This document shows positions 37,999 to 43,480 of a stretch of DNA of 64,000 nt, in pieces. Both the position numbers and the translations under genes were made by a program. Source of the stretch: an uncultured Planctomycetaceae bacterium (GTDB lineage Bacteria > Planctomycetota > Planctomycetia > Planctomycetales > Planctomycetaceae); NCBI GenBank assembly GCA_963815195.1, contig CAWFGE010000010.1:320001-384000 (forward strand). Direction: 5' to 3'. Numbering within the stretch: position 1 is the stretch's first letter; every line of letters begins with the position of its first letter. Below the pieces are notes generated by a model. It searched no databases, was not told where the DNA came from, and saw only the letters and a list, made by a program, of their open reading frames with translations.

Positions 37999-39280
37999 AT
38001 GTTGGACCTTCAATTCATTTGCGAAAACAAGGAGGCCGTCGCGGAGAACTGCCGAAACCGCGGCGTCGCCGTGAATTTGGATCGGCTGATCGACCTTCGC
38101 GAGGCCCGGAACCAATTGATCGTCGAAGGCGATCAGCTTCGGCACGAGCAGAAAGAACTCTCGAACGAGATCCCCAAAACCAAAGACGCCGACAAAAAGC
38201 AGGCCCTGATTGCCCGCGGCCGAGAGTTGCGGGAGCAAATCGCCACGAATGAAGTCGCCCAGAAGGAATACGAGGCCGAGCTGCGGATCGAGCAGGCCCG
38301 CATTCCCAACATGACCCACCCCGACTCCCCCGTGGGCCGCACGGAAGAGGACAGCAAGACGCTGCGGACGTGGGGCGAGATTCCCAAGTTCGATTTCGAG
38401 CCGCTCGATCACTTGGACCTTGCGGAAAAGCACGATCTGATCGATCTGGAAGCCGGGGCGCGGGTGGCGGGGCACGGGTTTTATTTCCTCAAGAACGAAG
38501 CCGTGCTTCTCGAAACCTCGCTCGTACAATATGCCTTGCAGAAATTGCGGGCCGCGGGTTTCACGTTGATGAGCACGCCCGACATCGCCCGGGATGAAGT
38601 CCTCGAAGGCATCGGCTTTATTCCCCGCGGCGAGGAGGCTCAGAATCTATTCCATCCAGGACACCGATTTGAGCCTGGTGGCGACGGCGGAAATCACGCT
38701 GGGCGGTTCGCTCAAAGATCAAGTTTTGGACGTGTCGAAACTGCCCATCAAGCTCGCGGGGCTGTCGCATTGCTTCCGCACCGAAGCCGGCGCCCACGGC
38801 CGCGCCACGCGCGGGATTTACCGAGTCCATCAGTTTACGAAGGTGGAGATCTTCGGCTTCACCGCCCCCGATCTGGAACTGTCCAACCCCTTTCACGAAC
38901 AAATCGTCGCAATCGAGGAAGAGATTTTCCAAGGCCTGAAAATTCCCTACCGGGTGATCGACACCGCCACCGGCGATTTGGGCGGGCCGGCTTACCGCAA
39001 ATTCGATCTGGAAGCCTGGATGCCCGGGCGAGGCGAAGGCGGTGCGTTTGGCGAAGTGACCTCGGCGTCCAACTGCACCGACTACCAGGCCCGCCGATTG
39101 GGCATTCGCTGCAAATCGCCCGACCGCAAAGGCACAGAGTTCGTGCACACGCTCAACGGCACCGCCGTCGCCAGCACCCGGGCGATCATCGCCATCCTGG
39201 AAAACTACCAGCAAGCCGACGGCAGCATCCTCATCCCCGAAATCCTCCGCCCCTGGGTCGGCGAGGAAAGAATCGGCTAA
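37999..39280 (+). CDS. serS: Serine--tRNA ligase; +1 frameshift near 38643, likely a sequencing error
   Basis: MLDLQFI coiled-coil arm, IPN, TAE, CFRTEAG..RG.YRVHQF.KVE, EVTSASNCTDYQARRL and HTLNGT. Confidence 0.96.
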
Positions 39281-39381
39281 CAGGGAGAGGTCTAAGCTAA
39301 GGAGTTGGCCGCAGATTCTCGTGGCCCGCACGTGGTGGAACGGATATAATGGCCTAATGAGCAATCCGAGGAGGAAGAATC

Positions 39382-39921
39382 ATGCACCGCGTGCGAATTG
39401 TCATTCAGCACAATCCTGACGATCCCGCTGACGACCTGCGGTGGGCCGCCCGATTGCGGCGCGACCTCTGGGCGCACTCCTCAGTGGAAATCGATCCCGA
39501 CAGCGCAAAACACGCCACGCACCGAAATGGCGAGGGGAATGCCTACTTCGAATTTGCCACCAACCATTTGCCTGAAGTTCGTCGCATCGTCGAGGATTAC
39601 GGATACAAGGACCGCGCAAGCGTCGAAGTGATTCAGGAGGGGCAGGGCACGGAATGCGTGAATTGTGGTTATATCTCTCCAGAATTGGCAACGGTCTGTC
39701 CGAATTGTCATTTTCGCGATATTGGACCGTGTCCTTACTGTAACAATGAAGTGGCCCGATTAAACTACATTTCGATCGCCGGCGATTTGTTTCAATGTCC
39801 GATTTGCCACCACCGGGTCCGGTTCCAATTCCATGATCCTTTGTTCGATGCGAGCGGCCATTACAATCAGCCGTTGGTTCGCGTCAATCCCGCCGAGGCG
39901 CCGGTCGAACATGATGTTTGA
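39382..39921 (+). CDS. Double zinc-ribbon hypothetical protein
   Basis: TATAAT at 39345 and GAGGAGG RBS; four CxxC pairs (CVNC, CPNC, CPYC, CPIC). Confidence 0.8.
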   Translation: MHRVRIVIQHNPDDPADDLRWAARLRRDLWAHSSVEIDPDSAKHATHRNGEGNAYFEFATNHLPEVRRIVEDYGYKDRASVEVIQEGQGTECVNCGYISPELATVCPNCHFRDIGPCPYCNNEVARLNYISIAGDLFQCPICHHRVRFQFHDPLFDASGHYNQPLVRVNPAEAPVEHDV

Positions 39922-40609
39922 CGAGCACGGCCATATCCTCCTCACACCGCGCGAAGTCAGGCAGCAGGCGTTCGATGACCCAGACGGACTCATCAATCAT
40001 GCCCTGATGCCTGGCACCCCTCTCGGGTTTCCCACGTATACCCAATATGCCCGGTTCGTTGATTATCTGTCCGCGAAGTTGGGAATCCATCCACATCACT
40101 TCCTGTTTCGAGGAAGCACAAAGATCGGGTTTAGTATTTCGCCCAATCGGGAAAAGAAAAAAACGTGGCGCAGGTTTGGAGCGGGTTCGGATTTGGACTT
40201 GGCCATTGCCGATCCGCATTTCTATGCGACGGTGGATGAGGCAGTTCGCCGGCATGACCGTATCTCAGAAAATCGCAAGCAAGTTTTCCAATATCGAAGC
40301 GGGACGGAGTTTTATAAGTACGAGAACCGCATCCATCAAAAGGGCCGGCACGATTGCTATCGGTTCTTCGATCTTCCGCGCGGCCTCTCCTGCCTCACCG
40401 AACTCGAGGAAGTTTTGAGGAATGCACCGGTTGACGATTGTTGCGTTTTTAAATTCGTCGAATTCAAGGCGTTCATTTTCCGCGACCGATGCGCGGTGCA
40501 TCGGCGGTATCATACCGACTTGGATGATCTTCGCCGCGGACTGACGACAAAATTCGATCGCCTGCCCGAACCGCCCGAGGAACCTTTCGGGAATGACGAA
40601 TTGGTTTAG
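39911..40609 (+). CDS. Pol-beta-superfamily nucleotidyltransferase-like protein
   Basis: hRGS..GFS...SDLDLAI (GS plus DxD); ATG overlaps the upstream gene end. Confidence 0.65.
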   Translation: MMFDEHGHILLTPREVRQQAFDDPDGLINHALMPGTPLGFPTYTQYARFVDYLSAKLGIHPHHFLFRGSTKIGFSISPNREKKKTWRRFGAGSDLDLAIADPHFYATVDEAVRRHDRISENRKQVFQYRSGTEFYKYENRIHQKGRHDCYRFFDLPRGLSCLTELEEVLRNAPVDDCCVFKFVEFKAFIFRDRCAVHRRYHTDLDDLRRGLTTKFDRLPEPPEEPFGNDELV

Positions 40610-41024
40610 CGCAATGTTGCGACTGTTGCCGGACCAAGTCTCGACTTCAACCGGTGCCGCCTGAGGTATTGAAAGTGAGCTTAGAGGTTTGAGGATTGGA
40701 AGCCAGCGTCCCATTGCCAAATCCCCGTCCTCCATCCTCCATCCTCATTCAGGATGTTGGCTGCCGGAAAGCACCCGGCGGACGGTCTCGCATTTCTCCC
40801 GACGTCGCGATTGGGCATCCTTCCCTTTTTCTTGATGACCTTTGGAAACTTCGCCGAACAATCCGCGCGCGCGCCTGATTGTAAGCTAAGTTTCATTGCC
40901 TTGTCGTTATGCCCAGTCCACCCGATCCGTTTTATCGATTAAAGCGGTCTTACGGGCGGCGGGCGGCGACTGACATTCCTCCTGGTGCGTCACGGCCCCG
41001 ATTCAAGATAAAGGATCAACGAAT

Positions 41025-42521: not shown

Positions 42522-43480
42522 ATGGACCCAACACTCATTTCCCTCGTGGCCTTTGCGGCGGTTGCGTCGCTGGTGGGAGCCGTCGCGTTTTTGATGCGTG
42601 ACCTCGGCTCGTCGAGCGTCGAAGACCGCCTGGAGGTAATGACAGGCCGGCGCCGGCAGGAAGATATCGTCACGAAAGACGTGCTCATCCGGGACGGGAT
42701 GGAAGGCCTTACCGGAGTCTTCGGCAAGTTCAGCGAGCGTCTCCAACGCTTGGCGCTCTTGTTCGAGCAGGCGGACTCCCCAATGAAGCCGGAAATGTTC
42801 TTCGGCGTGAGCGTGGGCATGGCCGTCGTGGGCGTGGTCGGCGGGGTCATCGCCCGCGCCCGGTTCCGCTCTTGCCCATCTGCGCGATGATGGCCGGCGC
42901 GATGCCTTTGCTGTGGCTGTTGTGGCGGCGGCGGGGGCGGTTTAAAAAATTCGCGATGCAGCTTCCCGACGCCTTGGAACTCGTGGCCCGGGCCCTCAGG
43001 TCGGGGCACAGCCTCGCATCGGGTTTAAAAGTCGTCGTGCAGGAAATGCCCGACCCAATTTCCCGAGAGTTCAGCAATGCCTACGAAGAGCAAAACCTCG
43101 GCATCCCGATCGAGGTCGCTTTGAAAAGCATGCTCCGACGCATGCCGAATATGGACCTCAAGTTCTTCGTGACCGCCGTGGCGATCCAACGGCAGGCCGG
43201 CGGCGACATGGCGGAAATCCTTGACAAGATCGGCTATATCATCCGCGAGCGGTTTAAGATCATGGGCCAGGTTCAAGCTCTCACCGGCGAGGGCCGGATC
43301 AGCGGGATCGTGCTGATGGCGCTGCCCATCGCGTTGTTCTTCGCCGTCTACTATCTCAACCCGGACTATGTGATGTTGCTGTTCACGGAAGAGTTGGGCC
43401 GCAAGATGATCGCCACCGCCGCCGTCCTCCAGGTTTTGGGAGCCGTGGCGATTAAGAAGATTGTAAATATCAAGATCTAG
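42522..43480 (+). CDS. tadB: TadB (T2SS F-family) protein; frameshift near 42865
   Basis: QLPDALELVARALRSGHS, IQRQAGGDMAEILD and ALTGEGRISG. Confidence 0.9.

What the first reader, a model, noticed from the sequence alone, without database searches (positions are those of the whole stretch)
39345..40609. Coupled double-zinc-ribbon plus nucleotidyltransferase pair: candidate new defence or toxin-antitoxin system
Seen: two genes between serS and tadA with their own TATAAT and strong GAGGAGG RBS, overlapping at ATGATGTTTGA (translational coupling), and with visibly more A/T-ending codons than the flanks. Gene 1 (179 aa) has an unknown N-domain and four CxxC pairs. Gene 2 (232 aa) has GS...DLD with a 24-residue GFS-containing insert between the motifs. 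Established: GS/DxD marks the Pol-beta NTase superfamily, whose small members act in conflict systems (CBASS cyclases, MNT antitoxins). No HEPN, SAVED, SLATT or nuclease effector is adjacent, so the pair matches no system I recognise. Inference: a zinc-ribbon sensor or antitoxin controls an NTase that makes a signal or modifies tRNA or protein.
Basis: partly seen in the sequence, partly recalled or inferred. Interest (0 to 1): 0.78.

Follow-up and report, generated by a model that had tools for sequence, protein, structure and literature searches.

The report
Mobile nucleotidyltransferase–zinc-ribbon toxin–antitoxin candidate
Two coupled genes, a zinc-ribbon protein and a predicted nucleotide-transferring enzyme that no family database names, travel together as a mobile cassette among planctomycete bacteria; the enzyme gene is usually the one lost first, so the pair is likely an undescribed toxin–antitoxin or anti-virus module.

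Summary
The pair is a real, conserved, mobile two-gene cassette. Gene 1 lay directly upstream of gene 2 in 19 of 19 genome loci. Gene 1 was found in 18 of 400 other same-class genomes, gene 2 in 0 of 3 same-genus genomes, and flanks vary. Gene 1 is a ferredoxin-like domain plus four conserved CxxC pairs. Gene 2 has invariant GS and DxD and a weak minimal-nucleotidyltransferase fold match (Z 4.8), but no conserved third acidic residue. It forms its own clade within an unannotated NTase family whose other members pair with DUF262; one distant relative is the C-terminus of a PAAR-type toxin. Among 68 non-redundant cassette states, gene 2 was broken beside an intact gene 1 in 19 cases and the reverse in 3 (two of those genomes hold more gene 1). 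Best reading (0.45): the NTase is a toxic effector held in check by gene 1, working like AbiE/MenAT but not a member. Hailong/Clover-type logic is disfavoured. Toxicity, binding, target and phage defence are untested. The scan reported NTase–DUF262 pairs before on other DNA, but not this pair.

The parts
39345..39350 (+). TATAAT -10 element, conserved with the cassette; no -35 found
   Evidence: 23 of 40 loci vs 18 of 4855 background windows
39368..39374 (+). Shine-Dalgarno GAGGAGG, 7 nt before the gene 1 ATG
   Evidence: similar purine-rich sites upstream in homologous loci
39382..39921 (+). Gene 1, 179 aa: ferredoxin-like N-domain (about residues 1-87) with a conserved beta2-beta3 loop (P39-D40-S41..H44-x-T46-H47-R48), then four CxxC pairs (two predicted zinc ribbons); predicted antitoxin/sensor
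39911..39921 (+). 11-nt start/stop overlap (likely translational coupling); homologues overlap or lie within about 20 nt
39911..40609 (+). Gene 2, 232 aa: divergent Pol-beta-like nucleotidyltransferase (G68-S69, D94-x-D96; no conserved third acid on the 185-190 strand); predicted toxic effector

Best explanation
The two genes are a self-contained mobile cassette with its own -10 box, and they likely work as a toxin-antitoxin or abortive-infection module in which gene 2 is a predicted toxic nucleotidyltransferase held inactive by the gene 1 protein. Shown: coupling, co-inheritance, patchy spread, purifying selection, invariant GS/DxD, the ferredoxin-plus-zinc-ribbon anatomy of gene 1, and preferential loss of gene 2. 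Inferred steps: (1) gene 1, made first and coupled to gene 2, binds the NTase through its conserved ferredoxin-like domain; (2) the zinc ribbons, absent from one natural variant, act as an accessory sensing or stability module; (3) phage infection, stress or cassette loss removes the restraint; (4) the freed enzyme uses an NTP and Mg2+ at D94/D96 to nucleotidylate a conserved cytoplasmic target directly, most plausibly a nucleic-acid end such as a tRNA acceptor stem, and growth stops. The target is the weakest step.
For: Co-occurrence: 19 of 19 genome loci found by gene 2 have gene 1 directly upstream, as do all 16 clade loci in the class sample. Pairwise distances of the two proteins correlate over 33 intact pairs (Spearman 0.72, 0 of 2000 permutations as high). 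Mobility: flanks differ; gene 1 is in 18 of 400 other class genomes; gene 2 is in 0 of 3 same-genus genomes; duplicated flanking sequence (host-gene ends or starts where read) brackets the cassette in at least 5 of 39 testable loci. Order of decay: of 68 non-redundant states, 38 have both genes intact, 14 have gene 2 truncated or deleted with gene 1 intact, 5 have a point lesion in gene 2, 3 have gene 1 broken with gene 2 intact, 1 has a short gene 1, and 7 have both broken (hand-classified). Of the 3 reverse cases, G729 holds a second intact pair and the L016 genome holds the missing 5' half of gene 1 at another contig's end, overlapping at 98% over 57 nt. Family context: sister NTases sit directly upstream of a DUF262/ParB-like gene with no nuclease hit in 11 single-locus cases plus one split locus, once behind an N6/N4 methylase. 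A distant relative is the C-terminal domain of a Tox-PAAR-like protein (hhalign probability 92.7%, E 4e-7 over 69 columns), which points to direct toxicity. Pol-beta NTase toxins that modify tRNA are cited in bioRxiv 10.64898/2026.10.19.760177 (passages).
Against: No experiment. The asymmetry is only suggestive: 12 of 32 vs 2 of 23 gives Fisher p=0.026, but p=0.065 if the short variant counts as broken. The two sets were found by different queries, overlap in three loci and are related. In the one sample searched with both profiles the split is 6 vs 1, too few to decide. Gene 2 is longer and lies 3', so neutral erosion from the 3' end could give part of the pattern. L033 has a nonsense codon in gene 1 beside an intact gene 2 and its genome could not be checked. 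The fold match is weak (best Z 4.8, none at 5 or above), and the third catalytic acid is not conserved, so catalysis is inferred. Gene 1 has no recognisable DNA-binding domain, and most loci are not in defence islands.
Confidence: 0.45

Rival explanations
1. Sensor-activated effector: the NTase is inactive alone, and gene 1 switches it on after sensing a phage protein, nucleic acid or nucleotide, taking the role DUF262 is thought to have in sister systems.
For: Gene 1 replaces DUF262 as partner across a 100/100 branch. Ferredoxin-like PII-type folds can bind nucleotides (established knowledge; CutA, PII-like and SbtB chains are among the top rows). The missing third acid could be supplied by a partner; gene 1 has invariant D18 and E57. 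Three loci keep gene 2 with a broken gene 1.
Against: It predicts roughly length-proportional loss of either gene; observed 19 vs 3, and two of the 3 genomes hold more gene 1.
Confidence: 0.2
2. Writer-substrate pair like GlnD-PII: gene 2 nucleotidylates gene 1 (on the conserved loop T46/S41 or invariant Y129) to make a small regulatory switch.
For: Gene 1's long conserved loop lies between beta2 and beta3, where PII has its modified T-loop (PII anatomy recalled). The best VIA rows are CutA and PII-like proteins, Z 7.0-7.2, rmsd 2.3-3.4 over about 76-81 residues. Y129 is invariant in 65 homologues.
Against: The Z values tie with generic ferredoxin-like domains (DapE, EF-G, ACT). No Pfam P-II hit and no conserved loop tyrosine. 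A metabolic regulator would not be expected to be this patchy, mobile and often pseudogenised.
Confidence: 0.12
3. Guard logic as in Hailong, Clover or HEPN-MNT: gene 1 is the toxin (for example a VapD/Cas2-like RNase) and the NTase restrains it with an inhibitory nucleotide or by AMPylation.
For: Precedent: mutating the NTase is toxic in Clover and Hailong (PMC12265719 section 2; PMC13434031 passages). The gene 1 N-domain has a ferredoxin-like fold, as VapD and Cas2 do (recalled).
Against: Gene 2 is truncated or deleted beside an intact gene 1 in 14 non-redundant loci, which this model makes lethal. No VapD, Cas2 or HEPN profile hit. The third-acid motif quoted for CloB, HalB and CD-NTases is not conserved.
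Confidence: 0.08
4. Not a conflict system: a small-molecule-modifying NTase (AadA/ANT-like detoxification) or a catalytically weak scaffold with an accessory protein, spreading as a beneficial cassette.
For: AadA is among the weak structural rows (Z 2.8). Most insertions are in housekeeping neighbourhoods. No relatives were found in viral contigs or, for one distant member, in phage genomes.
Against: Sister clades pair with DUF262 (best PADLOC hits NsnA and PD-T4-2_A), a methylase and a PAAR toxin scaffold. Detoxifying NTases do not normally need a coupled partner (established knowledge).
Confidence: 0.1

Closest known systems
AbiE, MenAT and SanaTA (nucleotidyltransferase toxin-antitoxin / abortive infection systems)
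   Same: Two-gene operon, partner upstream, Pol-beta-fold NTase downstream as the inferred toxin (system anatomy recalled; tRNA modification by Men toxins cited in the passage).
   Different: Gene 2 hits no AbiEii/DUF1814 profile at E<=1. The partner is a ferredoxin-like plus zinc-ribbon protein of no named family, not a winged-helix or kinase antitoxin.
HEPN-MNT (MntA/HepT) modules
   Same: The best structural matches are minimal NTases: 1no5 Z 4.8, rmsd 3.8, 93 aligned; 8xeh Z 4.0; 1wot and 5yep Z 3.4.
   Different: 232 aa rather than about 100; 24 residues between GS and DxD rather than 10 (recalled); no HEPN partner; NTase downstream and lost first.
Clover (CloAB) and Hailong (HalAB)
   Same: Two-gene systems built on a small stand-alone Pol-beta NTase.
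   Different: Their NTases carry a third acidic motif and restrain a toxic dGTPase or ion channel. Here the third acid is not conserved, the partner is neither, and the NTase is lost repeatedly with the partner intact.
Unnamed NTase + DUF262 pair (seen here and in earlier scan notes)
   Same: Same wider NTase family: GS-x3-GFS, SDxD, final strand with an aromatic-R/K-D-W motif.
   Different: Separate 100/100 branch. The partner is downstream DUF262 there and upstream ferredoxin/zinc-ribbon here.
GlnD-PII, and RelA with its zinc-finger and ACT regulatory domains
   Same: A Pol-beta-fold NTase working with a ferredoxin-like (and zinc-binding) partner domain (recalled).
   Different: No sequence match; those are conserved core regulators and this is a sporadic cassette.

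Membership tests
Pol-beta nucleotidyltransferase superfamily | hG[GS] loop followed by a DxD metal-binding strand | tested here: met
   G68 and S69 invariant in A1, A3 and A4; D94 51 of 52 and D96 52 of 52 in the widest alignment
Pol-beta nucleotidyltransferase superfamily | Pol-beta core fold | tested here: inconclusive
   Model pLDDT 92.5. The three top VIA rows are minimal NTases but Z is only 4.8, 4.0 and 3.4; Foldseek E>=0.3. One ESM look-alike cluster carries PF01909 in 11% of members; 1 of 52 wider-family members hits PF01909 at E 0.0036.
Pol-beta nucleotidyltransferase superfamily | NTP-dependent nucleotidyl transfer | not testable with these tools
   needs biochemistry
CD-NTase / HalB / CloB immune NTases | third acidic motif h[D/E]h after the DxD (as quoted in PMC12265719) | tested here: not met
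   Columns 185-190 are at most 8% acidic in all three alignments; E184 falls from 74% (A1) to 24% (A3) and 10% (A4); D192 is conserved but sits in R-D-W after the strand. Strand register comes from the model's secondary structure, not a residue-level superposition.
CBASS | CD-NTase profile and an adjacent Cap effector (SAVED, STING, TM, nuclease) | tested here: not met
   No PADLOC hit for either gene or for 25 clade members; the only constant partner is gene 1
Hailong / Clover guard systems | partner is a channel or dNTPase that is toxic without the NTase | tested here: not met
   Partner is ferredoxin-like plus zinc ribbons; 14 loci keep it intact with gene 2 truncated or deleted. Indirect genomic test only.
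HEPN-MNT toxin-antitoxin | about 100-aa MNT next to a HEPN RNase | tested here: not met
   232 aa, 24-residue spacer; no HEPN hit on gene 1
AbiE / MenAT / SanaTA | toxin of the AbiEii/DUF1814 family | tested here: not met
   No Pfam, NCBIfam or PADLOC hit at E<=1; none among 52 wider members at E<=0.01
AbiE / MenAT / SanaTA | partner gene upstream of the NTase in one operon | tested here: met
   19 of 19 loci
Toxin-antitoxin systems in general | toxicity of one gene neutralised by the other | not testable with these tools
   only the indirect decay pattern
PII / CutA superfamily (gene 1 N-domain) | PII-like fold with T-loop, trimer and nucleotide cleft | tested here: inconclusive
   Z 7.0-7.2 to CutA and PII-like chains, tied with unrelated ferredoxin-like domains; no Pfam P-II hit; oligomer not tested

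The most novel reading that the evidence does not exclude
Gene 2 belongs to a widespread, unnamed class of two-carboxylate Pol-beta effectors that kill by a new nucleotidylation chemistry and plug into interchangeable controllers (DUF262 NTPase, PAAR delivery, or this ferredoxin/zinc-ribbon protein). Here the controller is a new nucleotide- or phage-sensing antitoxin that completes or blocks the active site, which would make this a new anti-phage system.
Probability: 0.2. Interest if true: 0.85.

Novelty: new variant of a known kind. Interest (0 to 1): 0.62.

Why it matters
Small Pol-beta nucleotidyltransferases have recently yielded new immune chemistry (CBASS, Hailong, Clover, MenT). This enzyme family has no Pfam, NCBIfam or PADLOC model and no close solved structure, lacks the usual third acid, and swaps partners. 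The 1.3-kb pair carries its own promoter and has an obvious catalytic mutant, so it is a cheap handle on what the whole family makes or modifies, including the commoner NTase-DUF262 modules. It would also add an undescribed antitoxin or sensor family from planctomycetes, whose defence systems are little studied.

Tried and rejected
Sequence searches of solved structures with both proteins and with three gene 2 profiles gave nothing significant; gene 1 gave only generic zinc-ribbon matches. My early guess that gene 2 is a HalB relative found no support: no HalB chain was listed, which does not exclude a distant link. A search of the Clover supplement for four family motifs found none; only 7,026 characters of text were readable, so the CloB sequence table was not seen. 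The Nicastro 2023 paper cited by the Clover preprint was not held under the DOI I recalled and may bear on novelty. No viral-contig relatives of either gene. The phylum sample had 0 of 400 true gene 1 matches; its 4 weak hits (E about 1e-4) are partial matches within unrelated ORFs. A core or housekeeping role was rejected. An integron-cassette origin was considered after L055 but no shared boundary motif appeared downstream of gene 2 in 40 loci read by eye. Literature searches that listed nothing describing the pair: listings only, apart from the papers named as read; 0 papers each. PMC10853773 has no mention of NTase or DUF262; the two nucleotidyl passages of PMC3482391 concern RelA/SpoT-like toxins (first 300,000 characters only).

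Full report
Observation. GC3 is 0.60 and 0.61 against 0.74-0.81 in eight neighbouring ORF segments. Gene 2 matches no Pfam or PADLOC family at E<=1 and only two chance-level NCBIfam models; gene 1 gives only sub-threshold zinc-ribbon hits.

The pair is real and travels as a unit. Protein searches gave 94 relatives of gene 2 and 242 of gene 1, and 254 with a wider gene 2 profile. In the genome collection 19 loci encode a gene 2 relative, and all 19 have gene 1, whole or in part, directly upstream; their record titles name several planctomycete families. In a sample of 400 other genomes of the same class, gene 1 was found in 18. The NTase of this clade was found at 16 loci in 15 genomes, all with gene 1 sequence upstream. 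A phylum-wide sample had 0 of 400 true gene 1 matches, and gene 2 was not found in 3 same-genus genomes (no positive control inside that call). The DNA after serS in 9 relatives does not match the cassette. Distances between the two proteins correlate over 33 intact pairs (Spearman 0.72; 0 of 2000 permutations as high), and dN/dS is 0.03-0.33 where measurable. Neighbours differ from locus to locus. A Pfam scan of 62 hand-picked neighbours of the 19 loci shows TA- or defence-type genes in about 5 loci (DUF433 with an Eco57I-type methylase; an MNT; PIN with AF2212; DUF4062; PglZ with BrxL), and housekeeping genes around most others (no control set). The -10 box is carried with the cassette (23 of 40 loci vs 18 of 4855 windows), and in at least 5 of 39 testable loci a stretch of flanking sequence is duplicated on both sides. 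No viral-contig relatives were found.

Gene 1. The AlphaFold model (pLDDT 91) has a beta-alpha-beta-beta-alpha-beta N-domain. Foldseek gives only weak ferredoxin-like hits. VIA gives Z 7.0-7.2 to CutA and PII-like chains, tied with generic ferredoxin-like domains, so the fold is assigned but no family is. A long loop between beta2 and beta3 is strongly conserved, as are the eight cysteines, R126 and Y129. One genome (G588) has a roughly 90-aa gene 1 that ends before the zinc ribbons, directly ahead of an intact gene 2, which suggests the N-domain is the core.

Gene 2. The model is confident (pLDDT 92.5). The three best structural rows are minimal nucleotidyltransferases, but weakly (1no5 Z 4.8, rmsd 3.8, 93 aligned). 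Foldseek found nothing significant, and a second look gave AadA and CdnD at Z 2.6-2.8. G68, S69 and D96 are invariant and D94 nearly so across 52 divergent relatives, whereas the strand that would carry the third catalytic acid has none conserved. An exhaustive profile search found 514 representatives at E<=0.001; the best 150 reach a wider family of roughly 200-240 aa proteins, unnamed by PADLOC, NCBIfam or Pfam. In the loci I could read, these wider members sit directly upstream of a DUF262/ParB-like gene at L092-L094, L096 and L098-L104, plus a split locus L122/L126, once behind an N6/N4 methylase. One follows a transglycosylase, three have no partner I could name, and one distant match is the C-terminus of a Tox-PAAR-like protein followed by a small ORF. 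A tree of 30 NTases puts the 15 gene 1-paired ones on one side of a 100/100 branch, apart from the 11 DUF262-paired ones (midpoint root, several long branches). The family therefore swaps partners.

Which gene is the dangerous one. I classified 85 of 105 cassette loci by hand; 20 were dropped because a contig edge cut them. After collapsing near-identical copies there are 68 states: 38 both intact; 14 gene 2 truncated or deleted with gene 1 intact; 5 gene 2 point lesions; 3 gene 1 broken with gene 2 intact; 1 short gene 1; 7 both broken. Point lesions may be assembly errors, as the frameshifted serS and tadB of this window suggest, but the 14 large lesions are unlikely to be. Of the 3 reverse cases, one genome has a second intact pair, one has the missing half of gene 1 at another contig's end, and one (L033) is a single stop in a metagenomic contig. 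Comparing the two ascertainments gives 12 of 32 vs 2 of 23 (p=0.026), or p=0.065 counting the short variant; the single sample searched both ways gives 6 vs 1. The data are related and partly overlapping, and a 3' gene may erode first for neutral reasons, so this is suggestive only. It does argue firmly against a gene 1 that is lethal without gene 2.

Mechanism. The reading that fits best is a toxin-antitoxin or abortive-infection cassette: gene 1 restrains a toxic NTase, and release lets the enzyme nucleotidylate a conserved target (0.45). Arrangement, co-inheritance and decay order are shown; binding, trigger, catalysis and target are inferred. Rivals are an activating sensor (0.2), a GlnD-PII-like writer and substrate (0.12), a non-conflict enzyme (0.1) and Hailong/Clover-type guarding (0.08).

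Comparison with the known. It works like AbiE or MenAT in layout but fails their toxin-family test. It resembles MNTs in fold but not in size, spacing or partner. It differs from Clover and Hailong in motif and logic. Papers seen: PMC12265719 abstract and section 2, further passages, and a supplement of which only 7,026 characters were readable; PMC13434031 passages; bioRxiv 10.64898/2026.10.19.760177 passages; PMC3482391 two passages; PMC10853773 term search, no hits; all others as search listings only. Earlier scan notes describe NTase-DUF262 pairs on other DNA; look-ups by both sequences and by words found no note of this pair. Motif spacings and system anatomies marked as recalled come from no call.

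Verdict. A real, undescribed two-gene conflict-type cassette: a new variant of a known kind, built from two unnamed protein families, directly testable. Interest 0.62.

Noticed in passing
window 37999-39280 (serS) and 42522-43480 (tadB): Both genes are split by frameshifts. serS is one long frame in two of three same-genus genomes, so these are probably assembly indels.
   Followed up: partly
L095:826-1950 and 1964-2290 (G125): Tox-PAAR-like protein whose C-terminal domain matches this NTase family over 69 columns, followed by a 108-aa ORF that could be its immunity gene.
   Followed up: partly
L092-L094, L096, L098-L104, L122/L126: Sister NTases coupled to a downstream DUF262 protein with no nuclease hit; L102 has an N6/N4 methylase upstream, L093 an integrase-like gene, and L096 lies on a 6.2-kb plasmid.
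   Followed up: partly
L097:4271-5525: A wider-family NTase overlaps an upstream gene annotated as peptidoglycan transglycosylase on a plasmid: a possible third partner type.
   Followed up: no
L117:1214-1483 (G588): Zinc-ribbon-less gene 1 variant ahead of an intact NTase, inserted between genes that read like sufB and sufD (by eye).
   Followed up: partly
L014, L017, L031, L040, L065 flanks: 23-50 nt direct repeats bracket the cassette; in L065 the repeat is the 3' end of the upstream host gene (nuoD-like by eye). This hints at how small cassettes enter planctomycete operons.
   Followed up: partly
L055:6519-7380: Truncated gene 2 followed by a small two-gene pair and a sequence resembling an integron attC site (recalled pattern, untested).
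   Followed up: no
L019:4131-13626: The cassette, with a truncated gene 2, sits between GHKL ATPase genes and PglZ/BrxL genes of a BREX-like region.
   Followed up: partly
window 40680-40755: Short imperfect repeats (TTTGAGG.. / ..CCTCCAT) just downstream of gene 2 that could form a hairpin; not analysed.
   Followed up: no
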